From contig CAYVGC010000001.1 in NCBI GenBank assembly GCA_964449815.1, positions 15,361 to 79,360 on the forward strand: a stretch of DNA of 64,000 bases, in the 5' to 3' direction. This DNA comes from an uncultured Bifidobacteriaceae bacterium (GTDB lineage: Bacteria; Verrucomicrobiota; Verrucomicrobiia; Limisphaerales; UBA11358). The position numbers and the translations under genes were made by a program. Shown piece after piece: positions 6,382-19,937 of this stretch. Positions within the stretch are counted from its first letter, which is position 1, and each line of letters starts with the position of its first letter. A model generated the notes under the pieces. It did no database searches, was not told where the DNA came from, and saw only the letters and a program-made list of their open reading frames with translations.

Positions 6382-7650
6382 TTAGACGCCGCCAATCCAC
6401 TTGCGGTCTTCCCAAACGGCCCGGAGCGAAGTCAGGTTGCGCGAATCAAAGATATTTTTGGCAGCCGCCGCGATTTTGCCCTGTTTCAAATGGTTGAACG
6501 CGTCGCTGGCGCTGATGGCGACGAATTGCAGCACGCTCGGATCGCGGTAGCAGTCAATCATGCAGCGCGTGCAGCCGTCGCGGATGAGCTTCGAGTCGTC
6601 CCATTCCCAGACCTTGCACATCGGCTTCTCCCAGAAATGGCAGCGATACAAATCCAGCTTCCAGTCGAGGTAAAAATACTTGTGCCCGCCGAGGCAGCCG
6701 AATTTTTCCTTTTCGCCGCGCAGATGCCGCTGCATTTCGTCGAGGGATTCCCTTGGGTTCACGACGGGAAAACCGCTGTTCCGTTTCATCTGCTTGATTT
6801 TTTCGAACAGTTGAAGGAGTTCGTCCCTGGAAAAATTCACCAGGCCGCTGTCGCTGAAACTCAAATAGCTGCTCGCCAGCGATGTCAGCGGATAACTAAA
6901 CGTGCAGCTTCTGAAATCGAGCGATTCCAAAAACAGCGGCAACTTTTCAAAGTCGTCAATCAGCCGGCTGGCGGTGATGCTCGCCGTGGTTTGGATGCCG
7001 ACGGAATGGAAAAATTCGTTTGCGTGCTTGATTTTTTTGCAGACCGCCGGCAGGCCGCGGTTCGTTTCGTGCTTGGTGATGTCGTGCGCATCAATGGACA
7101 TGATGACACTGGTCAGACCGTCGCTGACGAGGCCGCGCATGTTTTCGTCATTCCACAAACCGCCGTTCGTGCAAATCATCGGATGAATCCCGCGCTCGGC
7201 AGCATAGCGCGTCATGGCACGCAAGTCGCGATGCACCATCGGTTCGCCGCCCACAAAGAGCAGATAGCCGATGTGATTTTTCAACGCGACGTCCACCACG
7301 CGCTTCGCCTCGTCGAGCGTCACGCTGCGGCGCGCTTTGGGATCAAACTTCGAGCGCGCGAAACCGCAGAAGCCGCAGTCGGCATTGCAGATGTTTGTAA
7401 TGGCAAACTGCAGATAGCCCGGTCCGCCGTGCTTCAAGACCTCTTTGAAAAGTGTGAACGTGCCTGTTTTTTTGCGAACCACCGGCACGGCGGAGTCAGT
7501 TGCCGGATTTTTGATTTCCGCCAAGTCCGGACTGGTTGTGGTTGAAATATTACTGGTCACAAACTGAGCCAGTTTGATGGCAAGAAAGGCTGCGGGCAAA
7601 CCATCTTTCACCTGCGAACCATTTCTGGCCGCGATTTTCGCTTTGCGCAA
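6382..7650 (-). CDS. Radical SAM protein with a Cys-rich (SPASM/twitch-like) C-terminus
   Basis: CxxxCxxC cluster in ITNICNADCGFCGFARS and a GGEP motif (FVGGEPMV). C-terminal cysteines lie in CLGGHKYFYLDWKLDLYRCHFW...GCTRCMIDC. There is no ATG near the 5' end, so the start is an alternative codon (TTG 7650 or an internal GTG). Confidence 0.8.
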   Translation of the reverse strand: MRKAKIAARNGSQVKDGLPAAFLAIKLAQFVTSNISTTTSPDLAEIKNPATDSAVPVVRKKTGTFTLFKEVLKHGGPGYLQFAITNICNADCGFCGFARSKFDPKARRSVTLDEAKRVVDVALKNHIGYLLFVGGEPMVHRDLRAMTRYAAERGIHPMICTNGGLWNDENMRGLVSDGLTSVIMSIDAHDITKHETNRGLPAVCKKIKHANEFFHSVGIQTTASITASRLIDDFEKLPLFLESLDFRSCTFSYPLTSLASSYLSFSDSGLVNFSRDELLQLFEKIKQMKRNSGFPVVNPRESLDEMQRHLRGEKEKFGCLGGHKYFYLDWKLDLYRCHFWEKPMCKVWEWDDSKLIRDGCTRCMIDCYRDPSVLQFVAISASDAFNHLKQGKIAAAAKNIFDSRNLTSLRAVWEDRKWIGGV

Positions 7651-7671
7651 GCACGGTGAAGAGTCTAGAGT
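7643..7671 (+). promoter_or_regulatory. Candidate sigma-70 promoter of tRNA-Gln
   Basis: TTGCGC (7643..7648), a 17-nt spacer, then TAGAGT (7666..7671). The -10 element ends 10 nt before the tRNA 5' end. Confidence 0.4.
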
Positions 7672-7681
7672 TAGGCTGGTT

Positions 7682-7755
7682 TGTCCGATGGTGTAATGGT
7701 AACACAGCGCCCTTTGGAGGCGTTATTCATGGTTCGAATCCATGTCGGACAGCCA
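7682..7755 (+). tRNA. tRNA-Gln (anticodon UUG), CCA encoded
   Basis: Hand-folded cloverleaf. Acceptor stem TGTCCGA/TCGGACA, D stem GTGT/ACAC, anticodon stem GCGCC/GGCGT with loop CTTTGGA (anticodon TTG), T arm CATGG-TTCGAAT-CCATG, discriminator G, then CCA. Total 74 nt. Confidence 0.9.
7730..7755. repeat. att core, tRNA-proximal copy (attL/attR)
   Basis: Identical to 14764..14789 over 26/26 bp. Confidence 0.85.
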
Positions 7756-7788
7756 ATTTTATCAATGAAAATGCGGGTTCTGTGGATG

Positions 7789-7808
7789 TTTGCACAGAAT
7801 TTGCACAG
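7789..7808 (+). promoter_or_regulatory. Two TTTGCACAG motifs spaced 11 bp apart (candidate integrase/Xis arm-type sites)
   Basis: TTTGCACAG at 7789..7797 and 7800..7808, between the att core and the integrase start. The same motif array occurs at the other island end. Confidence 0.5.
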
Positions 7809-7835
7809 CAACCGGCTCGACCTGCTGACCGTCGC

Positions 7836-9116
7836 GTGAGATTCCCTGTCACCATCCGACACCGCGCTAGCAGCGCGAAGATTTACGCGCCTGCCGGGAA
7901 GTTCGCCTACTACCGCGTCGCCTACGCCACGGCGGGCAAACGCCGGATGCAGACCTTCGCCGCCTATTCCGACGCCAAAGCCGCCGCCGAACGCATCGTG
8001 CGGGAACTGGCGAACGGATCACAGGCCGCCGCACTCAACGCCAGCCAGTCCCGCGACGCCCTTGCCGCCTTTGAACGGCTGGACGGCTTCTTCAAATCCA
8101 AAGGGAAGCGCGTCAGCCTCAATACCGCCGTGGCGGACTATCTGGATGCGGTTGGCAGGTTGAATGTCCCGTTGTCCGCAGCCGTGACGGGTTATTTGAA
8201 CACCGTGGCGACGGTCAAGCGCATGGACCTGGCCGCAGCCGTGAAAGAGTTTGTTGACGGGCGCGAGGCCGAGACAAAATCGGTGAACGGCAAGAGGCCG
8301 GAATTGAGCAAAAGCTATTTCCTCAATACGAAGCTCTGGCTTGGCTGGTTTGAAAAAACCTTTCCGGCAACGGCGGTTTGCGACCTGACAAGGGAGCATC
8401 TCGACTTGTTCATGGCCGGGCGCAGCCACCTTGCCGCCAAGTCCAAGAATCATCTTCGCGCCACGGTGAAGATGTTTTTGAACTGGTGCATCAAGAAAGA
8501 TTATTTGCCCGCGAACCACCGCTTGATGGATGCGTCTGGCATGAAGCGGCAAAAAGCCGACAGCGGCGAAACGGATTATTTCCGCCCGGCTGAATTGCGT
8601 GCCATGCTGGATGCGGCAGACGATACCATGCGACCGATTATCGCGCTGCAAGGTCTGGCCGGGATTCGACTGCAAGAAGCCCAGCGGCTGACGTGGCAGG
8701 ATGTTTTCAGCGTGGCGGGACACGTCGCCATTTCCGCCACGAAATCCAAGACCCGCAGCCGCCGCTTGGTTGAAATCTGCCCGGCATTGGCCGCGTGGCT
8801 TGAACCCTACCGCCAGCATGAAGGCGCGTTGTGGACACAGAGCCGCGACACCTACCACGCGGCGTTTGTCGAACTCCGCGAGTCCCAAAAAATCCCGGCG
8901 CGGAAAAATGGATTGCGCCACGGTTTTTGCACCTACCACTTCGCGCTGCATGACAATGAAAATTTGACGGCGGCACAGGCTGGAAACAGTCCTACCGTGA
9001 TTCATTCGGCATACAAAGGGCTGGCGACAAAAGCAGAGGCGAAAAAATGGTTCAAAGTTTTGCCGCCGAAGGCCGCCAAGAATGTGATTCCGCTGCCAGC
9101 GGCAAAAAATGCCTGA
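7836..9116 (+). CDS. Tyrosine recombinase / phage-type integrase
   Basis: The C-terminal catalytic region contains GIRLQEAQRLTWQDV (Arg), LRHGFCTYH (His/Arg region) and a terminal SAYKG (Tyr). The track ORF starts at 7656 and overlaps the tRNA, so an in-frame GTG at 7836 downstream of the tRNA is proposed. The start remains uncertain. Confidence 0.85.
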   Translation: MRFPVTIRHRASSAKIYAPAGKFAYYRVAYATAGKRRMQTFAAYSDAKAAAERIVRELANGSQAAALNASQSRDALAAFERLDGFFKSKGKRVSLNTAVADYLDAVGRLNVPLSAAVTGYLNTVATVKRMDLAAAVKEFVDGREAETKSVNGKRPELSKSYFLNTKLWLGWFEKTFPATAVCDLTREHLDLFMAGRSHLAAKSKNHLRATVKMFLNWCIKKDYLPANHRLMDASGMKRQKADSGETDYFRPAELRAMLDAADDTMRPIIALQGLAGIRLQEAQRLTWQDVFSVAGHVAISATKSKTRSRRLVEICPALAAWLEPYRQHEGALWTQSRDTYHAAFVELRESQKIPARKNGLRHGFCTYHFALHDNENLTAAQAGNSPTVIHSAYKGLATKAEAKKWFKVLPPKAAKNVIPLPAAKNA

Positions 9117-10188
9117 CACACCGCCGATGAACTCAAAAGCGAAAATGATTCGACGAAAGAAGCGCGGCGGTTTCGCCGAACGGCTACTTGAAAAAACTAC
9201 AGCGCCGGACTTGAAAAATGCACTTCCAACGAGCGAATGGAATTTTGATGAGACTAAAGTATCCGATACCGAGGTTGTGGCGTGCTGCCTGTGGGAATAT
9301 GCGCGTGAGTCAGCTACGCTAAAAAAATTGCGGCAGCAGTGCGAGATAGCCTGCCGCGCCGATGGCAACGCTGATTCGCTGGTTCCCGTTGTGGCGGGGA
9401 ACATCCGACACCGGCGCAATTCCGTGGAACTTTTTTTGCGGGAGATCGTGCTTCTGCCTCCGCCAGACTTATGGCAGAGCGCAGACGAGTCCAAGCCATT
9501 TTACTGGCCGCCTGATGCTGCCTTTCCACCGCGAACCAGCAGCTTCCCTGATTCCTGGCAATCAATGTCCCCGGATGAACGTGCTCGCCGGGCGGAGTCT
9601 GTAGATTTGAAAATGAAGCCTTACTTCGCGTTCAGTCGTGGCCGTTTGCGAGACGCGCAGGCCATCGTAAGGACAGTGATGGAACAGCGCAAAGTCGGAT
9701 TAAATCCCAAGATTGACCCCCTTGCAGTCAGTTTAATTGCCACGTCCATGCCGTTAGCGCCACACGCGCCGTTTGAATGGACTGATGATAATAACCGACT
9801 GCCGGGCGGGTTTGTGTATCCCGGCGGCACGGAGGTTTCGGTTGTGGAAATTGATTGGGCGCACTTCACTGACAAGGAAATTGCAGACGCGATTGCCCAA
9901 AGCCGGCCAAAGGAAATCCCTGAACCATCAGGGCGCGGGCGCGGAGATACAATCGCAGACTGGCGGGCAAAACTTGAACGGCTCGGAATCATGCGGTTGA
10001 TGCACCATCACTCGTTTGACGATTTGGGAAAAATCGTGCCGGGTGAATGGTTGAATCGGGAGAAGTATTCCACCAAGGCCGAGTGCAAAAATGAACACAA
10101 AAAAGCTCTTGATGACTTTCACGATTTGTTGCCGCTCCAGTCTGACGAGAAACCACTATCTTTCGAGCCGCTGACGGGCAATTGGTAG
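9109..10188 (+). CDS. Hypothetical protein (island orphan, no recognised domain)
   Basis: 359-aa ORF on the same strand as the integrase, overlapping the integrase stop by 8 nt. I recognise no motif. Confidence 0.6.
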   Translation: MPDTPPMNSKAKMIRRKKRGGFAERLLEKTTAPDLKNALPTSEWNFDETKVSDTEVVACCLWEYARESATLKKLRQQCEIACRADGNADSLVPVVAGNIRHRRNSVELFLREIVLLPPPDLWQSADESKPFYWPPDAAFPPRTSSFPDSWQSMSPDERARRAESVDLKMKPYFAFSRGRLRDAQAIVRTVMEQRKVGLNPKIDPLAVSLIATSMPLAPHAPFEWTDDNNRLPGGFVYPGGTEVSVVEIDWAHFTDKEIADAIAQSRPKEIPEPSGRGRGDTIADWRAKLERLGIMRLMHHHSFDDLGKIVPGEWLNREKYSTKAECKNEHKKALDDFHDLLPLQSDEKPLSFEPLTGNW

Positions 10189-10256
10189 CCACGGAACTTT
10201 TCGGAATCAAATCGCGGCGATTTGTTTCCTTGCTCCATGCGCAATGATGGTTGCGC

Positions 10257-10472
10257 ATGAGCGAAAACTTGAATCCAACGGCACCGCCGAGCGAAGCGGG
10301 GTTTATTGACGAAAAGCAACTGCTGGCGCGGCTTCCTGTGTCACGGCGAACCTGCTACGCGTGGGTTCAATCTGGAAAACTGCCCTGTTGCAAAATAAGC
10401 AGACGCAAACTGTATCACTGGCCATCGGTGGAAGCAGCGCTCCTGCGGATGCAACGAGGAGGCTGCCAATGA
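10257..10472 (+). CDS. Excisionase/AlpA-like helix-turn-helix DNA-binding protein (copy 1)
   Basis: GFIDEKQLLARLPVSRRTCYAWVQSGKLPCCKISRRKLYHWPSVEAALL matches the MerR-superfamily excisionase/AlpA HTH pattern. ATG at 10257 (the track start, TTG 10251, is also possible). Confidence 0.75.
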   Translation: MSENLNPTAPPSEAGFIDEKQLLARLPVSRRTCYAWVQSGKLPCCKISRRKLYHWPSVEAALLRMQRGGCQ

Positions 10473-10777
10473 AAACCACATCCGCCTGTTACGACGCGAT
10501 TGGCAACCTCGAATTATCTGCGTGGCTGGTGGCTCCCGGCGTGACGTGGATTCAGACCCGCTCACCACAGTTCGCCCGCAAACTTTCACAACGAAGCGAT
10601 TTCCGACTTGTGGCGCATGGTGTCGCGGGCGGTTATCTCCGCACCTTTGAATTTCAGCGCGGGCTGGCATGGGCGCGGCGTTTAATTGCGCGTTACACCA
10701 AAAACGAGACGGCGACTAATGTGCGGATAATTGCGCCAGCGCGCCCGCCCCGGCGTCGAATGGCTGAAGTCGGATGA
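10469..10777 (+). CDS. Hypothetical small protein (102 aa)
   Basis: The ATG at 10469 overlaps the Xis stop (ATGA), and its own stop overlaps the primase-like start (ATGA at 10774). It therefore looks like a coupled three-gene operon. Confidence 0.55.
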   Translation: MKTTSACYDAIGNLELSAWLVAPGVTWIQTRSPQFARKLSQRSDFRLVAHGVAGGYLRTFEFQRGLAWARRLIARYTKNETATNVRIIAPARPPRRRMAEVG

Positions 10778-11985
10778 TAGCGCCCATTGCCATCTCCGCA
10801 CCCGTTTCCTTTGGCTTGGACGTTCGCCGCCCAGGATTGCTGGAAACGCGCAGCACGGGTGACGTGTTGCTGGGCATCCAGTCCGGCGCATGGCTGGATA
10901 CAGTTGCGCTTGTCCGGTCGCTGCCGCATGACAGCGCAGAGCAAAAATCCGCCAAGCTCGCGCTCCCGTTTGCGACATGGGCGGGCGTGTTTTCGCGCCG
11001 TTCCATCTCCGGGCTTGTCTGGCACTCTGGGCAAATCGGCGTTGACCTAGACGACCTGGGCGAAGCCGCAGCCGTCGCCGTGTTGCAAACCGCCGTCGCC
11101 GACAGGTTTTGCTTGGCCGCATTTCGATCCGCCCGTGGTGAAGGTGTCCGGCTGATTTTCAGAATCCCGCCTTGCTCGCCAGAGAACCACTCCATCGCAT
11201 TTGAACAAGTCGCCGAACACGTCCGCAACACCTACGGGCGGGACGTGGACGAATCCGGCAAGGATGTTTGCCGCGCAAGTTTCGTCAGCTTTGATCGTGG
11301 TTTGTGGTTCAATCCGTCCGCTGGTGTTTTGCCGATACATCTGCCGGATGGCACACAGCGAGAGAATCCCTCTTACCGCTGTGTGCCATCGCCCTATGCT
11401 GGGGAATTGGCTTTAACCTGTTGGAATTGGTTTGGGCAGCACTTCGCCAACATCGCGCCCGTGTCAGGCGAGACGGTAAAAACGCACGGCAACATTTTGG
11501 CTTTGGGCAAGGCTATTGCTCTACATGCCGAACGGATAAAAGCGCCGGTGACTGCCCGGCTTATTGATTCGGCGTTTGATTCATGGTGGCGCGAGCACAA
11601 CCGGCAAGGTGTCCGTTTGCGTTGCTCGCCGAATGAATACCGGCGCGAGTTGCGCGACAGTATTGAAGGGGCGCGGCGCAAAAGTTGGTTCAAGTCCGCC
11701 GCTGAAAAATGGCTGCGATGGACACGGCACACAAATTTTCCGCACAGCGGATTCGAGCGAGTCTTTGGCCTTGGACAGTGCTTCTTCACGTTCGCGGATG
11801 GATTTTTCCCGCCCGGCAACGTCGAGGTCTTTTTGGGCCAGCCGATTTTCAAAATCACGGCGGGTGGATTCAATGAGCGGGGCAGCCAACGATTCCGTCA
11901 GCTTGATCTCGTTTTTGCATTTCGGACAGATGATGGTTGGTTCGGCCATAAGCATTCCTCTGGATTCAGTGTTTGCGCCCATTAA
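10774..11985 (+). CDS. Primase-like replication protein (BT4734/VirE N-terminal domain type); 3' end probably disrupted
   Basis: KLALPFATWAGVFSRRSISGLVWHSGQIGVDLDDL, FRSARGEGVRLIFRI and DESGKDVCRASFVSFDRGLWFNPSA match the BT4734-like/VirE_N pattern (KLP..t.sG.F..R...L..hSG...lD.D.l; F.S.sG.G.k; D.s.kD..R..f.S.D....N). The last ~235 nt are antisense to a DUF2130 gene fragment, so the true C-terminus is doubtful. Confidence 0.65.
   Translation: MIAPIAISAPVSFGLDVRRPGLLETRSTGDVLLGIQSGAWLDTVALVRSLPHDSAEQKSAKLALPFATWAGVFSRRSISGLVWHSGQIGVDLDDLGEAAAVAVLQTAVADRFCLAAFRSARGEGVRLIFRIPPCSPENHSIAFEQVAEHVRNTYGRDVDESGKDVCRASFVSFDRGLWFNPSAGVLPIHLPDGTQRENPSYRCVPSPYAGELALTCWNWFGQHFANIAPVSGETVKTHGNILALGKAIALHAERIKAPVTARLIDSAFDSWWREHNRQGVRLRCSPNEYRRELRDSIEGARRKSWFKSAAEKWLRWTRHTNFPHSGFERVFGLGQCFFTFADGFFPPGNVEVFLGQPIFKITAGGFNERGSQRFRQLDLVFAFRTDDGWFGHKHSSGFSVCAH
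11750..11949 (-). pseudogene. Truncated DUF2130-family gene (N-terminal ~65 codons only)
   Basis: MAEPTIICPKCKNEIKLTESLAAPLIESTRRDFENRLAQKDLDVAGREKSIREREEALSKAKDSLE resembles a DUF2130 N-terminus (Zn-ribbon-like CPxC followed by a coiled coil). Beyond about 11750 the reading frame looks like non-coding translation. Confidence 0.5.
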
Positions 11986-12136
11986 ATACAGAATCATCCA
12001 CCTTGTCGAAAGATTCTGGACGGCAGGGCGAATTTCTCGCGGTTGTCTTGCCCTTATCTACGGGCAATTTTTGGAAGACACCATCCCCTTAACCATTCGG
12101 CCAACGAAACGAGCCGCATCCGCACCAGTGTCAAAT

Positions 12137-12187
12137 TGCGGCAAAATGCGGCAACGAACTTGTCGCAATTTGCCGCCATTTGCCGCC
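12137..12187. repeat. Phased GCGGCAA motifs in an inverted arrangement (candidate operator or iteron)
   Basis: TGCGGCAA at 12137..12144 and 12147..12154 (10-bp phase), TGTCGCAA at 12161..12168, and then TTGCCGCC at 12170..12177 and 12180..12187 (reverse complement GGCGGCAA, 10-bp phase). Confidence 0.5.
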
Positions 12188-12204
12188 TTCAGCCGAAGGC
12201 TTTT
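12185..12204 (+). terminator. Candidate rho-independent terminator
   Basis: GCCTTC-AGCC-GAAGGC hairpin followed by TTTT. Confidence 0.4.
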
Positions 12205-12223
12205 ATCACACGGACGCCTTACT

Positions 12224-12246
12224 CCTTGGCTGAACCAAGGTTTTTT
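12224..12246 (+). terminator. Candidate rho-independent terminator
   Basis: CCTTGG-CTGAA-CCAAGG hairpin followed by TTTTTT. The orientation fits termination of the xis/orf/primase operon. Confidence 0.45.
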
Positions 12247-12498
12247 GTCCGCGCAACGGCCACGATCCGGCCCGCGTGTTGAACGGTGTTGACAGGTTCA
12301 ACGCAATTCAACATCGCGCATCCGCGCCAGGTATGCCTTCGGCTCCGCGTGAATCGCCCTGCGATTGTGTGGCTCGCTGCGCGTCGTCAAGGTAGTTTCG
12401 CCGTAATGCCCGGCGACTTCCACCTTGACGATGCTCGCTTCGCCGGGAGAAAGACGGGCGATTAAGGATTCACGCGGGAAGTGTCGCAGCCGTTGGCT

Positions 12499-12960
12499 GG
12501 GACATCACACGGGAAATGCGATACCGTGATGCGGACAGTTTCCGGCCAGTCCAAGTATCGGGACACGGACGGCCTATGGCCAGAACGCGGACATTCGCGG
12601 CACGGGCACGGTCGCGGACATGGACTTTTCACGGACACGGACTGTGCGCGACCACGGAGAAACAGCGGACGCGGATGCGGTCACGGACTGGATGCGGGCA
12701 CGGCGCGGTCGCGGACTGGACACGGCCCCGGATCGGACACGGACTGCCCGTGGCTACGGACAGCGGCGCGGCCATTTGGCCGGACAGATTGCGGATTCAC
12801 CGCGACTGTTTCGCGGACGCAAAAACCTCGTTTTGACGAGGAGTAAGGCTTGCCCCATCCAAAACCGGTAGGTTGCAACCATGCGGATGCCAATCCACTG
12901 CGGATCAAGTGTGGACTGATTTGCCTGCATCGCGGATGCGACTGGACAGATTACGAGGAC
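12499..12960 (+). repeat. Strand-specific degenerate short-motif array (core CGGAC, variants GGGAC/TGGAC/CGGAT)
   Basis: There are 14 exact CGGAC on the + strand, at 12532, 12566, 12588, 12615, 12632, 12638, 12666, 12684, 12712, 12734, 12740, 12757, 12781 and 12814. I saw no GTCCG on this strand in the same span. CGGACACGGACTG doublets recur at 12632 and 12734. GCGGAT variants continue to about 12940. Five overlapping stop-free frames are a compositional side effect. Confidence 0.75.
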
Positions 12961-13085
12961 ACTTTCCATTCCGGCAGCGTGTCAGCCGCTTTTGAAATCC
13001 TGCGTGCGTGACACACCCGCCCGGTCGCTGTTTAGCACAAAGTCTCCGGTGTATGAATGGTGAACTGAAAGATTTTTTGAGCGTC

Positions 13086-13334
13086 ATGCCGCCTGCCAGC
13101 CCGGATATACGGGACGTTGGTATCCGCGCTGAACAAAACCAAACATCGGCAGGCGAGGCTGGCTTCATTGACCAAAAGCAATTGCTGGCGCGGTTGCCAA
13201 TCAGCCGCCGCACGTTGTTCAACTGGCGCACGTCGGGCAAAATTCCCTGCGTGCGGCTGGGCGGGCGTCGCATCTTGTTTCACTGGCCTTCAGTCGAGGC
13301 CGCGCTGCTGCGTCACCAAAATCCGGCGGCGTGA
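13086..13334 (+). CDS. Excisionase/AlpA-like helix-turn-helix protein (copy 2, diverged paralog of 10257..10472)
   Basis: GFIDQKQLLARLPISRRTLFNWRTSGKIPCVRLGGRRILFHWPSVEAALL is roughly two-thirds identical to copy 1 over ~55 aa by eye. The start is uncertain (13008, 13053 or 13086). Confidence 0.7.
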   Translation: MPPASPDIRDVGIRAEQNQTSAGEAGFIDQKQLLARLPISRRTLFNWRTSGKIPCVRLGGRRILFHWPSVEAALLRHQNPAA

Positions 13335-13418
13335 TAATTCCCCTGATTGACACTTTGCCCGAATGACGCAATCTGTCCGCGACGTTTTTTGGATTTGAAA
13401 CCGAGATGATTCAATGGC

Positions 13419-14465
13419 ATGAGCGCGAATGAAAATAAACCCGGCGGCGAAGTGATCCTGTATCAGACCGAGGATTTACAGACTCGCGTGCAAGTGCGGC
13501 TGGACGGACAGACGGCCTGGCTGTCTTTGAACGAACTGGCGGAGTTGTTCCAGCGGGACAAATCAGTGATTTCCAAACATCTTAAAAATATATTTGAAGA
13601 AGGCGAACTGTCGACAGCGGCAACTGTTGCAAATTTTGCAACAGTTCAAAAGGAGGGCGGGCGCACGGTTGCGCGGAACATCGAGTTTTACAATCTGGAC
13701 GCCATTATCGCCGTTGGCTACCGCGTGAAATCGGCGCGTGGCACGCAGTTTCGCATCTGGGCGACGGCGCGGCTCAAGGAATATCTCGTCAAAGGCTTCA
13801 CGATGGATGACGAGCGGCTGAAAAATCCGCCGGGCAAGGGGCAGACGGATTATTTTGACGAACTGCTGGCGCGTATCCGGGACATCCGTTCCTCGGAACG
13901 GCGGTTCTATCAGAAGGTTCTGGATATTTACGCGACGAGCGTGGATTACACGCCGGATGCGGAGGTGTCGCAGAAATTCTTCGCCACGGTGCAGAACAAA
14001 ATGCACTGGGCGACGCACGGCCACACGGCGGCGGAGATAATCCATGAGCGGGCGGATGCCGGGAAACCGTTCATGGGGATGCTGACGACGCGCCCCGGCG
14101 GGCGCGTGCGGAAAGAGGACGCGGCGATTGCCAAGAATTACCTCACGGAAGACGAATTGCAGGTGCTTAACCGCATTGTGAATCTCTACATCGAATACGC
14201 GGAGTTGCAGGCGCTGGAACGCAAGCCAATGACGATGCGCGACTGGATCACGAAGCTGGACGAGTTCCTGAAAATCTCCGGGCGCAAGCTGCTGGATCAC
14301 GCCGGGACGATTTCCCACGAGCAGGCGATGATAAAGGCGGAACTGGAATTTTCAAAATTCCGCGCACTGGAAGATGCGAAACCGTCGCCGGTGGAAAAGG
14401 AATTTGAGGCGACGGTGAAAAAGTTGAAGCAATTGAAACCAGCGAAGGGAAAGAAAAAGCCCTGA
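13419..14465 (+). CDS. RhuM-family (virulence RhuM / Fic-DOC-associated) protein
   Basis: EVILYQTEDLQTRVQVRLDGQTAWLSLNELAELFQRDKSVISKHLKNIFEEGEL...NLDAIIAVGYRVKSARGTQFRIWATARLKEYLVKGF is the characteristic RhuM N-terminal signature. Confidence 0.88.
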   Translation: MSANENKPGGEVILYQTEDLQTRVQVRLDGQTAWLSLNELAELFQRDKSVISKHLKNIFEEGELSTAATVANFATVQKEGGRTVARNIEFYNLDAIIAVGYRVKSARGTQFRIWATARLKEYLVKGFTMDDERLKNPPGKGQTDYFDELLARIRDIRSSERRFYQKVLDIYATSVDYTPDAEVSQKFFATVQNKMHWATHGHTAAEIIHERADAGKPFMGMLTTRPGGRVRKEDAAIAKNYLTEDELQVLNRIVNLYIEYAELQALERKPMTMRDWITKLDEFLKISGRKLLDHAGTISHEQAMIKAELEFSKFRALEDAKPSPVEKEFEATVKKLKQLKPAKGKKKP

Positions 14466-14547
14466 CGCGCTTCACGTCGTTTTGAGTCCCGGATGCTGCC
14501 ATGAACCCTCCGGCGGTGATCGGGACGCGCCACGGCAGGCCAAAATC

Positions 14548-14632
14548 TTTGCACAAGGTTTGCACAGATTCCGGGGCGAGTTTGATTTGCACAAAGTTTG
14601 CACAGCCGGTTTCTCTGCACACGATTTGCACA
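14548..14632 (+). promoter_or_regulatory. Six (T/C)TTGCACA motifs as three 11-bp-phased pairs (candidate arm-type recombinase/RDF sites)
   Basis: Motif starts at 14548 and 14559, at 14586 and 14597, and at 14614 (TCTGCACA) and 14625. All share the orientation of the pair at 7789/7800. Confidence 0.55.
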
Positions 14633-14763
14633 CGTTTTTCTTCCCACCGCTTCCCAAAAATGAACAGATAATGCTTGCAAACATTGATTGTCTGTGTATA
14701 TTGAAGGGCAATGAATATACAACTAGAGGCAATCATGGGAAGCGGTGAGAACACCCTGAAAGT

Positions 14764-14789
14764 TGGTTCGAATCCATGTCGGACAGCCA
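14764..14789. repeat. att core, distal copy
   Basis: 26/26 identity to the tRNA-Gln 3' end. The upstream flank does not fold into a tRNA. Confidence 0.85.
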
Positions 14790-15018
14790 GTCTGGTTCTT
14801 TTGCGAACTCCGCTTGAAGTCCGTTGATTCATAAACTTCCATCGCCGGGTTGTCCGGCAAAGCGTTGTTTTTCCCAGCAAGCCTCGCATGGGTGTTATGC
14901 TTCATATACTGCGGCCTTCATTTCCTTGCCGGCTTTGAACTTCGGCCGTTGCTAAAAACGAAGTCAAGTCAACGCAAAAATAATTTGTGCCGCGCGGGAC
15001 AAGTTGTATTTTGGGGTT

Positions 15019-16005
15019 ATGAGCACCCGTTTCAACCGCCGGAGTTTCTTGAAGAAATCGGCGGCCGTGGCCGTGGCCGCGCCGCTTGTCGCCAGCCTGG
15101 AAGAATACAGGCTCATGGCGCAGGAATCCGGGGCGCCCGCGCCGGGGGTAGTCGGTGGAAAACCGGCCGCCATGCCGATGGGCACGATTGGCCATGTCAA
15201 GATGAGCCGACTGATCTGCGGCGGCAATCTGGTCAGCGGCTATGCGCACAGCCGCGATCTGATTTACGTTTCCAATTTGCTCAAAGCCTATTTCACCGAC
15301 GCGAAAATCATGGAGACGTGGGCGCTATGCGAGCAGAACGGAATCAACACGATGATTTTCAATCCATCGGATCAACACGCGCTGCGTGTTTACAGGGAAT
15401 ACTGTAAAAAGGGCGGCAAGATGCAGTGCATCGCGCAGCTCGATGCGCCGAAAGAAAACATGGAAGGCTGCATCAAGGAGGCAGTGGATGCCGGCGTGGA
15501 TGGAGTCGTTCTGGTCGGCAATCTCGGCGACAGCTGGTCGCGCGAAGGCGCGGTGGACCGGATCGGAAAATTCATCGAACTGGCGCAAATGAACGACATC
15601 ATCGCCGGCGTGGCCGGCCACGAATTGCACACGCCGATGGCGGTCGAGAAGGCCGGCATCAAGGCCGATTTTTACATGAAGACCCTGCACAACACCAACT
15701 ACTGGTCCAAGCGCCGGCCCGATCAGGTGCAAGAGGTCATTGATAATTATGGCGTTGACAATTACTGGTGCATGGATCCGGAGGGCACCATTGAATTCAT
15801 GAAAACGACGAAGCGTCCGTGGCTGGCCTACAAAGTTCTGGCCGCCGGCGCGATTCATCCGCGCGAGGGTTTCAAGCACGCGTTTCAGAACGGCGCGGAT
15901 TTTTGCGTGGTCGGCATGTTCGATTTCCAGGTGGCGGAAAATGTTTCGGTCGCCAACGAAGTTCTTCAGACGATTGAAAAACGAGAGCGCCGGTGGATGG
16001 CGTGA
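15019..16005 (+). CDS. Hypothetical exported protein with a twin-arginine (Tat) signal
   Basis: MSTRFNRRSFLKKSAAVAVAAPLVA is a Tat-type leader. I recognise nothing in the remainder. ATG at 15019 (track start TTG 15004). Confidence 0.7.
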   Translation: MSTRFNRRSFLKKSAAVAVAAPLVASLEEYRLMAQESGAPAPGVVGGKPAAMPMGTIGHVKMSRLICGGNLVSGYAHSRDLIYVSNLLKAYFTDAKIMETWALCEQNGINTMIFNPSDQHALRVYREYCKKGGKMQCIAQLDAPKENMEGCIKEAVDAGVDGVVLVGNLGDSWSREGAVDRIGKFIELAQMNDIIAGVAGHELHTPMAVEKAGIKADFYMKTLHNTNYWSKRRPDQVQEVIDNYGVDNYWCMDPEGTIEFMKTTKRPWLAYKVLAAGAIHPREGFKHAFQNGADFCVVGMFDFQVAENVSVANEVLQTIEKRERRWMA

Positions 16006-18539: not shown

Positions 18540-19829
18540 TTACTTCAGGCCGACGAGATAGCCGAAGCGGGCCTTGAATTGTTCCGGCTTCATCTTGACG
18601 ACGGCACCGAGCTTGGCGAGATGCTTGGCGTCCTCGAAGTCTTCGCGTTCGAGGCGGATCATGTAGGCCTGGGCGCATTCGAAGGCTTCACCGTCCACGT
18701 TCACGCGGCGGTTCTGCATGCGGCCGGTCTTGGGATCAAGCATCTTGTCGAACGGCAGCGGGTTCATCTTGCCGTCCACGAAGCTGATGATGGCGCCGTA
18801 TTTTTCGGCCTCAGGCGAGCGGAGGAATTTCACCGCGGCATAGCCGAGGTCGCGGGTGTATTCGGCGTCGAACGGGATCGGATCGGCGCAGCGCAGTTCG
18901 TAGCCAAGGTCCTTGTCAATGAAAGTCATCTTGATGCCGAGCTTTTCCAGGCGCGTGCTCAAAAGCTCTTTCATCAGGCGGCCGAATTCGATTTCACCGA
19001 GGCGCAGATGGCCGTGTTCGTCGCGGACGACTTTTCCGAAACGTTCCAACTGGCCGGCGGGGAGGGCTTCCACGAGGCCTTTTTCGCCAATCGCTTCAAT
19101 CAAGCCTTCCGCCAGCACCACCAGCCCGTAACGCGAGCCTTCGGCGGTGCGCTTGATGATGGAGCCGATGATGATGTCGCAGACTTCATCCACGGTGACG
19201 GGGCGGCCGCGAAATTCCTCGGAAATGATGGAGAGCGTGGCGGCGGAGGCCTTGGCGATGCCGAGCGCCAGATGCCCCGCCGCGCGGCCCATGCTGACGA
19301 TGAGATACCAGCGTGACGTGGTGCGCGCGTCTTCAATCAGGTTGCGGACAATCTGCACGCCGTAGTGGCGGGCGGTTTCATAGCCGAACGTCGGCGCGGT
19401 GCCGGGCAGCGGCAGGTCGTTGTCAATCGTCTTGGGCACATGCGCGACCTTGATTTTGCCCTTGCTATATTTGGAGACGTAGCTGGCGGAGAACGCTGTG
19501 TCGTCGCCGCCGATGCTGACGAGGGCGGTGATGCCGAGCTTCTCGAACACGGTGAAAATGTTGTTCATCTGCTCCTGCGACTTGGTCGGGTTGGTGCGCG
19601 CGGTGCCGAGAATCGAGCCGCCCTTGAGATGAATGTCCTTCACGTCGCGGATGGTCAGCGGCTTGATCTGTGTGGTGTCGCCCTGCGCGATGTATTTGAA
19701 GCCGTCGCGGAAGCCGATGACTTCATAGCCTTGGTTGATGCCTTCGATGGTGGCCGCCGCGATGACGCCGTTGAGTCCGGGGGCCGGACCGCCGCCCACC
19801 AAAATTCCGAGTCTGCCTTTATTGCTCAT
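18540..19829 (-). CDS. 6-phosphofructokinase (ATP- or PPi-dependent, PFK family)
   Basis: RLGILVGGGPAPGLNGVI, SIGGDDT, PKTIDNDL and MGRAAGHLAL motifs. Confidence 0.9.
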   Translation of the reverse strand: MSNKGRLGILVGGGPAPGLNGVIAAATIEGINQGYEVIGFRDGFKYIAQGDTTQIKPLTIRDVKDIHLKGGSILGTARTNPTKSQEQMNNIFTVFEKLGITALVSIGGDDTAFSASYVSKYSKGKIKVAHVPKTIDNDLPLPGTAPTFGYETARHYGVQIVRNLIEDARTTSRWYLIVSMGRAAGHLALGIAKASAATLSIISEEFRGRPVTVDEVCDIIIGSIIKRTAEGSRYGLVVLAEGLIEAIGEKGLVEALPAGQLERFGKVVRDEHGHLRLGEIEFGRLMKELLSTRLEKLGIKMTFIDKDLGYELRCADPIPFDAEYTRDLGYAAVKFLRSPEAEKYGAIISFVDGKMNPLPFDKMLDPKTGRMQNRRVNVDGEAFECAQAYMIRLEREDFEDAKHLAKLGAVVKMKPEQFKARFGYLVGLK

Positions 19830-19937
19830 GTATTTTGAATGTTAAGTTGATGTCTGCAAAGACGGCGTATCATGCCTGCAACAAAGTGAAATTTCAATTC
19901 CATTCTTGCCACAATCTGCCCACAATTTGCCAACTGA

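What the first reader, a model, noticed from the sequence alone, without database searches (positions are those of the whole stretch)
7789..14632. Phased TTTGCACA sites at both ends of the island (2 and 6 copies, 11-bp phase, same orientation)
TTTGCACAG occurs twice, 11 bp apart, between the att core and the integrase gene (7789 and 7800). It also occurs as three 11-bp-phased pairs 130 to 215 bp inside the other att core (14548/14559, 14586/14597, 14614/14625). Helical-turn phasing, clustering near both att sites and a shared orientation are what is expected for arm-type integrase or recombination-directionality-factor binding sites in lambda-like recombination. This defines a testable intasome architecture for this element.
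Basis: partly seen in the sequence, partly recalled or inferred. Interest (0 to 1): 0.55.

Follow-up and report, generated by a model that had tools for sequence, protein, structure and literature searches.

The report
Integrase arm-type sites flanking tRNA island
The phased TTTGCACA repeats are real and are most likely the distal "arm" docking sites of the integrase of a 7-kb island inserted in a tRNA-Gln gene; this is a known mechanism in an unstudied Verrucomicrobial element family, where the left pair of sites also lies inside a reading frame that joins the integrase gene only when the island is excised as a circle.

Summary
There are 2 + 5 exact TTTGCACA copies plus one 1-mismatch copy (TCTGCACA at 14614). 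All are on the + strand, arranged as four 11-bp pairs inside a 7,034-bp island bounded by a 26-bp tRNA-Gln repeat. Shuffled sequence gives 0.05 such pairs.

In 79 related Verrucomicrobial loci the same layout recurs:
- One pair lies 47 nt (or 47±3n) before the int start.
- Three pairs lie about 142-220 bp before the far att core.
- Positions hold to within ±2 bp, whichever of at least 7 tRNA genes is targeted.

The 5' triplet of the site differs between lineages (TTT-, CCC/ACC-, CTG-) but is the same at both ends of each island. It tracks the integrase N-terminal domain: 74-91% vs 35-64% identity, p=7e-10. It does not track the core-binding or catalytic domains, or the two Xis-like proteins. 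I conclude these are arm-type integrase sites, not RDF sites. Binding itself is untested.

Beyond the finding, the int frame stays open across the reconstructed attP in 22 of 23 loci. It runs back to a conserved ATG behind a conserved outward-facing promoter in the right arm, with frame-compensating indels. This suggests a circle-specific long integrase isoform, which is inferred, not shown.

The parts
7682..7755 (+). tRNA-Gln(ttg), the integration target. Its 3' 26 nt (7730-7755) form the attL copy of the core repeat.
   Evidence: ARAGORN; Rfam tRNA 64 bits; direct repeat D10
7756..7835 (+). P' arm, the int leader: 80 nt with no stop codon in the int frame. It is translated if initiation occurs upstream.
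   Evidence: The int frame is open >=35 codons upstream in 73/75 loci, against 1/75 and 45/75 for the other frames. Length variants are all multiples of 3.
7789..7797 (+). Arm-type site L1 (TTTGCACAG)
   Evidence: at +56 from the T-loop TTCRA in all mapped loci
7800..7808 (+). Arm-type site L2 (TTTGCACAG)
   Evidence: at +67 from the T-loop in all mapped loci
7836..9116 (+). Tyrosine integrase, short form (GTG start, 426 aa). Codons 1-66 (7836-8033) form the N-terminal beta4-alpha domain proposed to read the sites.
   Evidence: PF00589; AF2 pLDDT 88.6, with full-length lambda Int as top PDB matches; the start codon is GTG (59) or ATG (17) at the same position in relatives
10251..10472 (+). Xis/AlpA-like HTH_17 protein, paralog 1
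   Evidence: PF12728; its identity does not follow the site class
13008..13334 (+). Xis/AlpA-like HTH_17 protein, paralog 2 (maximal ORF; the true start is probably internal)
   Evidence: PF12728; repeats D4/D6 with paralog 1; no association with site class
14548..14556 (+). Arm-type site R1 (TTTGCACAA)
14559..14567 (+). Arm-type site R2 (TTTGCACAG)
14586..14594 (+). Arm-type site R3 (TTTGCACAA)
14597..14605 (+). Arm-type site R4 (TTTGCACAG)
14614..14622 (+). Arm-type site R5, degenerate (TCTGCACAC). Close relatives have CTTGCACA here.
14625..14633 (+). Arm-type site R6 (TTTGCACAC)
14641..14751 (.). Inverted repeat (16-nt arms at 14641-14656 and 14736-14751) that brackets the promoter and covers the second ATG
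   Evidence: I20. An inverted repeat at the same place, with different sequence and paired changes, occurs in relatives.
14675..14702 (+). Sigma-70-like promoter TTGCAA-16-TATATT. It faces out of the island toward attR, and toward int once the island is circular.
   Evidence: a TTGnnn -16/18- TAnnnT element is at the aligned position in about 20 of 23 right arms (read by eye)
14711..14789 (+). Right-arm part of the attP-spanning ORF. ATGs at 14711 and 14735 are in frame with int across the junction (53 or 45 extra codons).
   Evidence: Contig L080 carries such a junction with an intact 492-aa ORF.
14764..14789 (+). attR copy of the 26-bp core repeat (displaced tRNA 3' end)
14778..14796 (+). 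Terminator-like hairpin plus T-run just after attR, probably the native tRNA terminator displaced by the island
   Evidence: no terminator-like site lies between the tRNA and int

Best explanation
The eight sites are arm-type binding sites for the N-terminal domain of the island's own tyrosine integrase. Together with the tRNA-derived core they define an attP of about 295 bp. The layout is a P arm with three site pairs (R1-R6, 216-132 bp before the core repeat), the core, and a P' arm with one pair (L1-L2, 33 nt after the tRNA end), followed directly by int.

Each 11-bp pair would seat two integrase N-domains on one DNA face. The core-binding and catalytic domains of the same protomers hold the core, bridging arms and core as in lambda and mycobacteriophage L5 intasomes. 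That step is inferred.

The site's 3' half (G/A)CACA(G/A) is common to the family. Its 5' triplet sets lineage specificity and has co-evolved with the N-domain.

Two further consequences are inferred. First, the right-arm sites lie just upstream of a conserved promoter that faces out of the island. The left pair lies downstream of that promoter once the island is circular. Integrase bound to its arm sites would therefore also sit on its own circle-specific expression unit. Second, the left pair is read as codons (Cys-Thr-Glu-Phe-Ala-Gln) in an N-terminally extended integrase that can only be encoded by the excised circle.
For: What the sequence shows:
- There are four phased pairs in the window against about 0.05 by chance.
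- In 1.26 Mb of window plus 79 related loci, the generic pair pattern occurs 120 times. Of these, 76 are at the int-proximal position, 36 are in mapped right arms, and 8 are elsewhere. Seven of those 8 look like right arms without a mapped attR (L031, L037, L059) or a second island in tandem (L062); one inverted pair in L007 is unexplained. Chance expectation is about 5.
- L1/L2 sit at +56/+67 from the T-loop, and R3-R6 at -181/-170/-153/-142 (±2), in all site classes. R1/R2 sit at either -219/-208 or -208/-197, a shift of one helical turn.
- This geometry holds for islands in tRNA-Gln, Leu(tag), Leu(gag), Met, Arg, Asn and Pro.
- The same 5'-triplet variant is found at both ends of each island.
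- Among 63 loci whose catalytic domain is <66% identical to the window's, N-domain identity is 74-91% in TTTGCACA islands (n=18) and 35-64% in the others (n=45), p=7e-10. The core-binding and catalytic domains and both Xis paralogs do not separate in this non-overlapping way.
- Site class and tRNA target reassort. The window and L021 both use tRNA-Gln but differ in class; L030 and L039 both use Leu(gag) but differ in class.
- The integrase model has a separate N-terminal four-strand-plus-helix domain ahead of lambda-Int-like core-binding and catalytic domains. Full-length lambda Int (1z1b, 1z1g, 5j0n) gives the best PDB matches, over about 410 alignment columns.

From the literature: lambda Int binds arm-type sites through its small N-terminal domain and bridges arms and core (PMC4880445).
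Against: - No binding or recombination data exist.
- The N-domain matches no Pfam family, even at E<=10.
- The N-domain has no significant PDB neighbour when searched alone. The best hit is E=0.19, and an AP2 domain scores only E=1.9.
- hhalign against lambda Int aligns only the Arg-I region.
- The co-variation of N-domain and sites could partly reflect co-inheritance of two adjacent DNA segments (they lie about 30 bp apart) rather than recognition. However, the far-end sites, 6-11 kb away, carry the same variant.
- All eight sites share one orientation. I could not check this against characterised systems here.
Confidence: 0.8

Rival explanations
1. The sites bind the recombination directionality factor, one or both of the Xis/AlpA-like HTH_17 proteins, which would bend the arms and set the direction of recombination.
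For: Two HTH_17 genes are in the island, and homologues occur in most related islands with enough sequence. Direct repeats about one helical turn apart are typical of Xis sites in lambda (own knowledge; Xis sites X1, X1.5 and X2 are named in PMC4880445).
Against: Xis1 and Xis2 identity does not follow the site class (p=0.095 and 0.21, with overlapping ranges). For example, Xis2 is 86% identical in a CTGACACA island (L029) and 82% in a TCCGCACA island (L045), but only 45% in the TTTGCACA islands L005 and L019. The sites lie on both arms, whereas RDF sites are normally confined to one arm.
Confidence: 0.05
2. The sites are operators or activator sites for a transcription regulator other than integrase. 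This regulator would control the outward-facing right-arm promoter and int, and the sites would have no direct role in recombination.
For: R5/R6 centre about 80-90 bp upstream of the likely start of the promoter at 14675-14702. L1/L2 lie in the int leader. In S. aureus phages an identical TTTGCACAA-N2-TTTGCACAA pair sits between rinA and the HNH/terminase genes, where a regulatory role looks more likely than recombination.
Against: Integrase and the HTH_17 proteins are the only proteins found in most islands with enough sequence. orf2, the BT4734-like protein and RhuM are each found in only a few loci. The site class follows the integrase N-domain. What is conserved is the distance to the att core, across different tRNA targets. 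A regulatory side-effect of integrase binding is compatible with the main explanation.
Confidence: 0.07
3. The sites are host DnaA boxes, or iterons of a replication origin used by the BT4734-like primase-type protein after excision.
For: nTTTGCACA matches the relaxed DnaA box TTWTNCACA at 8 of 9 positions (own knowledge of the consensus). The island encodes a protein with a BT4734-like N-terminal domain.
Against: Sister lineages carry CCCGCACA or CTGACACA at the same positions, and these do not fit a DnaA box. Two classes occur in tandem in one genome (L062), which argues against a single host factor. Only 6 of 79 loci give any BT4734 match, and just 2 of those cover most of the protein, yet all keep the sites. 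The sites keep a fixed distance to the att core, not to any replication gene. A separate GC-rich repeat region (12540-12790) is a better origin candidate.
Confidence: 0.03

Closest known systems
Bacteriophage lambda Int / attP (arm-type sites P1, P2, P'1-P'3)
   Same: A heterobivalent tyrosine integrase with a small N-terminal domain plus core-binding and catalytic domains. Repeated sites distinct from the core lie on both arms of an attP of a few hundred bp, and neighbouring sites are about one helical turn apart (PMC4880445).
   Different: There are eight sites as four pairs (2 + 6) rather than five sites, and the site sequence is different. The N-domain has four strands and shows no detectable sequence or Pfam relation to lambda's. 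The target is a tRNA 3' end. int is transcribed away from the adjacent att site, and the P' arm lies in its leader.
Mycobacteriophage L5 Int / attP (arm-type sites used as adjacent pairs; tRNA-Gly target)
   Same: Integration is into a tRNA gene, arm-type sites are organised as adjacent direct-repeat pairs on both arms, and a small Xis of the HTH type is present.
   Different: The site consensus and the number of pairs differ. No sequence relation was tested. L5 attP is not known to lie inside an int reading frame.
ICEclc Pcirc promoter (Pseudomonas)
   Same: An outward-facing promoter at the int-distal end of a tRNA-inserted element is placed upstream of int only when the ends are joined by excision (PMC5812530). 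The window has a conserved promoter-like element in the equivalent place.
   Different: In ICEclc the fusion is described as transcriptional only. Here a start codon also lies in the far arm and the frame stays open across attP into int. The promoter is embedded between the arm-type sites and the core. Promoter activity is untested.
SSV-type ('suicidal') integrases of archaea
   Same: The recombination site lies inside an int-frame ORF, so integration separates the 5' part of that ORF from the rest (PMC8371274).
   Different: Only a 45-53-codon, poorly conserved N-terminal extension is detached. A complete integrase ORF with its own conserved GTG/ATG start remains next to attL, so the gene is not destroyed. 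The host is bacterial, whereas the review states that self-disrupting recombinases are exclusive to archaea.

Membership tests
Arm-type sites of heterobivalent (lambda-type) tyrosine integrases | The element encodes a tyrosine recombinase with core-binding and catalytic domains | tested here: met
   PF00589, 28.5 bits against a cut-off of 27.1. The AF2 model's best PDB matches are lambda Int, XerA, integron integrase and Tn1549 Int. Invariant R278, K305, R361, H390 and Y393 in 61 relatives.
Arm-type sites of heterobivalent (lambda-type) tyrosine integrases | The integrase carries an additional, separate N-terminal DNA-binding domain | tested here: met
   The model shows strands at 5-9, 12-17, 26-32 and 35-41 plus a helix at 44-59, with pLDDT 89-94, followed by a low-confidence linker. 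Full-length lambda Int chains align over about 410 columns.
Arm-type sites of heterobivalent (lambda-type) tyrosine integrases | The N-domain belongs to a described arm-binding domain family (lambda Int N-domain, Tn916/AP2-like, Pfam Arm-DNA-bind families) | tested here: inconclusive
   No Pfam hit at E<=10. Foldseek on the N-domain alone gives no match below E=0.19, and an AP2 domain scores E=1.9. hhalign against lambda Int aligns only the catalytic region. The topology (beta-sheet plus C-terminal helix) is of the same general kind.
Arm-type sites of heterobivalent (lambda-type) tyrosine integrases | Repeated sites, different from the core sequence, lie on both arms of attP within a few hundred bp of the crossover | tested here: met
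   L1/L2 are at +56/+67 and R1-R6 at -219 to -142 from the T-loop. None lies in the core repeat.
Arm-type sites of heterobivalent (lambda-type) tyrosine integrases | Site positions relative to the core are conserved in related elements | tested here: met
   About 75 of 78 loci have the left pair, and 23 loci with both ends have the right pairs, at positions constant to ±2 bp across 7 tRNA targets.
Arm-type sites of heterobivalent (lambda-type) tyrosine integrases | Site sequence co-varies with the integrase N-domain | tested here: met
   N-domain identity is 74-91% against 35-64% by site class, p=7e-10. No comparable separation is seen for the other domains or for Xis.
Arm-type sites of heterobivalent (lambda-type) tyrosine integrases | The N-domain physically binds the sites, and the sites are required for recombination | not testable with these tools
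   This needs EMSA or footprinting and recombination assays.
RDF (Xis) binding sites | Sites are confined to one arm and their sequence follows the RDF | tested here: not met
   The sites are on both arms. Xis1/Xis2 identity is unrelated to site class.
Replication iterons / DnaA boxes | Sites are linked to a replication gene or are invariant for a host factor, independent of att geometry | tested here: not met
   Lineage variants CCCGCACA and CTGACACA occupy the same positions. Two classes occur in one genome (L062). A BT4734-like match is found in only 6 of 79 loci, just 2 of them covering most of the protein. The distance to the core is fixed.
SSV-type self-disrupting integrases | The att site lies inside the int reading frame | tested here: met
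   The int frame is open >=45 codons across the reconstructed attP in 22/23 loci, against 0/23 and 6/23 for the other frames. The frame combinations (2,1), (1,2) and (0,0) always sum to 0 mod 3.
SSV-type self-disrupting integrases | Integration splits the enzyme so that no intact integrase gene remains | tested here: not met
   A complete 426-aa ORF with all three domains stays next to attL. Its start codon is GTG or ATG in 76 of 80 sequences; of the rest, one is TTG and three read ATC because the alignment is one codon off, with GTG directly upstream.
Pcirc-type excision-activated int promoter (ICEclc) | An outward-facing promoter at the int-distal end is placed upstream of int by circularisation | tested here: met
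   At sequence level only. TTGCAA-16-TATATT at 14675-14702, with an equivalent -35/-10 element at the aligned place in about 20 of 23 right arms. Promoter activity is not testable here.

The most novel reading that the evidence does not exclude
In this bacterial family the integrase gene is built across attP. A promoter and a start codon in the far (right) arm are joined in frame, through the tRNA-derived core and the left pair of arm-type sites, to the integrase gene, but only in the excised circle. The circle would make a longer integrase (45-53 extra residues) from a good promoter and ribosome-binding site. The integrated island would be left with the short form, which starts at a GTG with no obvious Shine-Dalgarno sequence and is probably fed by read-through from the tRNA gene. 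The arm sites would then serve at once as intasome sites, as codons, and as autoregulatory operators of this unit. This would be a non-suicidal bacterial counterpart of the archaeal SSV-type arrangement, and a built-in switch between integration and maintenance.
Probability: 0.55. Interest if true: 0.72.

Novelty: new variant of a known kind. Interest (0 to 1): 0.55.

Why it matters
The arm sites themselves are ordinary biology in a new family. Three things give the case value.

- It provides a natural specificity series. At least three site classes are paired with three N-domain classes on otherwise similar integrases, and they reassort independently of tRNA target. This could be used to work out, and re-engineer, how an undescribed arm-binding domain reads DNA.
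- It gives a precisely defined attP of about 295 bp for a widespread group of Verrucomicrobial islands, with positions conserved to ±2 bp. This makes in vitro reconstitution straightforward.
- If the attP-spanning reading frame is expressed, it is a new way for a bacterial element to couple integrase supply to its own physical state. A review describes integrases with the att site inside their own gene as restricted to archaea (PMC8371274).

Tried and rejected
- **N-domain family.** I tried to place the N-domain in a known family using Pfam at E<=10, a PDB sequence profile, Foldseek on the domain alone and hhalign against lambda Int. None gave a usable match.
- **Excised circles.** Two junction patterns were each scanned in metagenome and viral contigs, and a third pattern in viral contigs only. 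They returned only one short contig (L080), which cannot separate a circle from a tandem array.
- **Over-long N-termini.** The over-called N-termini of database integrase homologues all read through the tRNA, so they come from integrated copies, not circles.
- **IMG/VR motif scan.** A scan for TTTGCACAR-N2-TTTGCACAR gave at least 120 hits. None encodes a detectable relative of this integrase's N-domain, although a few carry a remote tyrosine-recombinase match (24-26% identity, E 3e-4 to 7e-3). The largest group is S. aureus phages, where the pair lies between rinA and the HNH/terminase genes. I treat this as unrelated reuse of a similar sequence, not as family evidence.
- **DnaA box idea.** I rejected it because sister lineages carry non-DnaA variants at the same positions.
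- **Iteron idea.** I rejected it because the replication-type gene is mostly absent from relatives.
- **Rfam.** It finds only the tRNA in 7000-15500.
- **Chance.** Rejected by the shuffles.

Full report
**1. Observation**

Exact TTTGCACA occurs nine times in the 64-kb window. Seven copies are on the + strand at 7789, 7800, 14548, 14559, 14586, 14597 and 14625. The 9-mer TTTGCACAG is present only at 7789, 7800, 14559 and 14597.

Allowing one mismatch, the window holds four same-strand pairs at 11-bp spacing. Sixty dinucleotide-preserving shuffles gave a mean of 0.05 and a maximum of 1.

tRNA-Gln(ttg) lies at 7682-7755. Its last 26 nt are repeated exactly at 14764-14789, which bounds a 7,034-bp island. 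The left pair begins 33 nt after the tRNA end and 47 nt before the integrase GTG at 7836. The right sites lie 216-132 bp before the attR repeat. One-turn phasing holds within pairs only; the pairs are 38 and 28 bp apart.

**2. The island**

Its genes are:
- a tyrosine integrase (7836-9116, PF00589);
- an unknown ORF (9109-10188);
- two HTH_17 Xis/AlpA-like paralogs (10251-10472 and 13008-13334);
- a protein with a BT4734-like N-terminal domain (10774-11985);
- a RhuM-family protein (13419-14465).

No terminator-like site separates the tRNA from int. A terminator-like hairpin follows the attR repeat. The tRNA's native terminator was probably displaced by the insertion, so int may be co-transcribed with the tRNA (inference).

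**3. Relatives**

The integrase has more than 1,000 homologues. The few that carry organism names are from Verrucomicrobia or Limisphaerales. A genome scan returned 79 loci with integrases 49-97% identical, nearly all in records titled Verrucomicrobiota.

In about 75 of 78 loci with enough upstream sequence, a pair of 11-bp-spaced direct repeats lies at the same place before int. The generic pattern NNN[AGT]CACAR-N2-NNN[AGT]CACAR occurs 120 times in 1.26 Mb:
- 76 at the int-proximal position;
- 36 in right arms with a mapped attR;
- 8 elsewhere. Seven of these look like right arms without a mapped attR or a second island in tandem; one inverted pair in L007 is unexplained.

Chance would give about 5.

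In 25 loci (including the window) the search found a tRNA-end direct repeat of 20-40 bp at both ends. The islands are 6.2-11.1 kb. They sit in tRNA-Gln, Leu(tag), Leu(gag), Met, Arg, Asn or Pro.

Measured from the T-loop TTCRA:
- L1/L2 are at +56/+67 in all mapped loci.
- R3-R6 are at -181/-170/-153/-142 (±2) in all lineages.
- R1/R2 are at -219/-208 or at -208/-197, a shift of one helical turn.

Such constancy relative to the crossover region, whatever the target and cargo, is what a recombination architecture predicts.

**4. Which protein reads the sites**

The 3' half of the site, (G/A)CACA(G/A), is shared across the family. The 5' triplet differs between lineages: TTT; CCC, ACC or TCC; CTG or GCG; and others. 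Each island carries the same variant at both ends.

The integrase N-terminal sequence falls into matching classes. I took the 63 loci whose catalytic domain is <66% identical to the window's:

| Protein or domain | TTTGCACA islands | Other islands | p |
|---|---|---|---|
| Int N-domain | 74-91% (n=18) | 35-64% (n=45) | 7e-10 |
| Int core-binding domain | 45-52% | 37-58% | 0.076 |
| Int catalytic domain | 52-61% | 54-65% | 0.018 |
| Xis1 | 35-71% | 37-76% | 0.095 |
| Xis2 | 46-89% | 42-86% | 0.21 |

Only the N-domain ranges fail to overlap. Site class also reassorts with tRNA target: the window and L021 share tRNA-Gln but differ in class, and L030 and L039 share Leu(gag) but differ in class.

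orf2, the BT4734-like protein and RhuM are each missing from most relatives. Two site classes occur in tandem in one genome (L062), which argues against a host factor.

The AF2 model (pLDDT 88.6) has an N-terminal four-strand-plus-helix domain. It is followed by domains whose best PDB matches are full-length lambda Int chains, over about 410 alignment columns.

Two limits apply. The N-domain matches no Pfam family and no PDB domain significantly when searched alone. No binding data exist.

**5. How it most likely works**

Shown:
- the anatomy of an attP of about 295 bp: a P arm with three pairs, the core, and a P' arm with one pair;
- its conservation across the family;
- the co-variation of sites with the N-domain.

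Inferred:
- Each pair seats two N-domains on one DNA face.
- Integrase protomers bridge arm and core as in lambda (PMC4880445).
- Different subsets of pairs, together with the Xis-like proteins, serve integration and excision.

A segment resembling CCGGnnCGA follows both L2 and R2 (family D3). It could be a site for a further factor.

**6. Beyond the finding: an ORF across attP**

The right arm carries three conserved features between R6 and the core:
- a sigma-70-like promoter facing out of the island. In the window it is TTGCAA-16-TATATT at 14675-14702, and an equivalent element is at the aligned place in about 20 of 23 right arms (read by eye);
- an ATG. In the window there are two, at 14711 and 14735. 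In distant lineages the context is AAAGGCAAT(T)ATGAGCAAC;
- an inverted repeat that brackets the promoter, with paired changes between lineages.

The int frame is stop-free for >=35 codons upstream of the canonical start in 73 of 75 loci. The other two frames manage this in 1/75 and 45/75. In attP junctions reconstructed from the two ends, the int frame is open >=45 codons in 22 of 23 loci, against 0/23 and 6/23. It reaches the right-arm ATG.

The distance from the left pair to the int start takes the values 44, 47, 50, 53, 56, 59 and 62 nt, all in one phase. Spacings in the right arm vary by single nucleotides. The residues mod 3 of the ATG-to-T-loop and T-loop-to-int distances are (2,1) in most loci, (1,2) in L013 and L025, and (0,0) in L032 and L048. 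They always sum to zero.

The canonical start is GTG in 59 sequences and ATG in 17, with no other Val codon, so it is also a genuine start. One metagenome contig (L080) carries such a junction with an intact 492-aa ORF. Whether it is a circle or a tandem array cannot be told.

My reading is that the circle encodes a longer integrase from its own promoter, and the integrated island encodes only the short form. This resembles ICEclc Pcirc (PMC5812530) with a translational fusion added. It also resembles SSV-type integrases without their self-destruction; a review describes those as exclusive to archaea (PMC8371274). The extension peptide is poorly conserved, so the frame may matter for expression rather than for protein function.

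**7. Rivals**

- **RDF sites.** Disfavoured by the lack of co-variation and by the sites lying on both arms.
- **Operator for another regulator.** No candidate protein is found in most islands. Regulation by bound integrase is compatible with the main view.
- **DnaA boxes or iterons.** nTTTGCACA fits TTWTNCACA at 8 of 9 positions. Sister lineages with CCCGCACA or CTGACACA at identical positions, the mixed classes in one genome, and the scarcity of the BT4734-like gene all argue against.
- **The same pair in IMG/VR.** It occurs in at least 120 viral contigs, but none encodes a detectable relative of this N-domain. In S. aureus phages it lies between rinA and the HNH/terminase genes. I treat this as coincidental reuse.

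**8. Verdict**

The arm-type reading is supported (confidence 0.8) and the RDF reading is not. The arm sites are a new member of a known kind. The attP-spanning reading frame with its circle-specific promoter makes the system a new variant of known kinds, pending experiment.

Noticed in passing
window 14711-14789 joined to 7756-9116 (reconstructed attP); loci L001-L063; L080:1313-2791: The int reading frame stays open across the attP junction back to a conserved ATG in the right arm (22 of 23 loci). Indels are multiples of 3 and frame shifts on the two sides of the core compensate each other. One metagenome contig carries such a junction with an intact 492-aa ORF.
   Followed up: yes
window 14675-14702 (+): A conserved sigma-70-like promoter faces out of the island toward attR. 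After excision it would point into int, as Pcirc does in ICEclc. The first ATG lies 8 nt after the -10 element, so the transcript may be leaderless.
   Followed up: partly
window 14641-14656 / 14736-14751; same place in L012, L025, L041, L039: An inverted repeat brackets the right-arm promoter and covers the leader ATG. Its sequence differs between lineages with paired changes, for example GTTGCTCATAGA/TCTATGAGCAAT in L012 against GTTGCCCATAGA/TCTATGGGCAAT in L025. It could be an RNA stem in read-through transcripts or a two-part operator.
   Followed up: partly
window 12540-12790, flanked by 12216-12264 / 12801-12849: A GC-rich region of degenerate GCGGAC / 28-bp repeats lies between the arms of a 49-nt inverted repeat, in the non-coding gap after the BT4734-like gene. 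It is a possible replication origin of the island.
   Followed up: no
window 7756-7835 and 14778-14796: No terminator-like site lies between tRNA-Gln and int, whereas a terminator-like hairpin follows the attR repeat. The integrated int may be transcribed by read-through from the tRNA promoter. The canonical GTG has no obvious Shine-Dalgarno sequence.
   Followed up: partly
L062:19882-19901 (34 bp after attR at 19820-19848); L007:6923 (- strand): In L062 a pair of a different site class (ACCGCACAA x2) starts exactly where a left arm would, right after the attR of a CTGACACA island. This indicates tandem islands of two specificity classes at one tRNA-Leu. L007 has an extra inverted TTTGCACA pair 3 kb upstream of int.
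   Followed up: partly
loci L013-L041 against the window (integrase domains): The integrase is mosaic. Within the TTTGCACA class the N-domain is 74-91% identical while the core-binding domain is only 45-52% identical. Arm specificity and tRNA target reassort independently, which suggests that domains are exchanged as modules.
   Followed up: yes
L084:4642-4661 and about 60 other IMG/VR loci; JQ779023.1 178-878: An identical TTTGCACAA-N2-TTTGCACAA pair is conserved in many S. aureus phages between rinA and the HNH endonuclease/terminase genes. It may belong to the late-gene control region and is unrelated to this integrase family.
   Followed up: partly
window 7809-7820 and 14568-14579: A segment resembling aatCCGGnnCGA follows the second site of both the left pair and the first right pair, making a 35-nt repeat unit. 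It recurs in relatives and could be a site for a further factor such as Xis.
   Followed up: no
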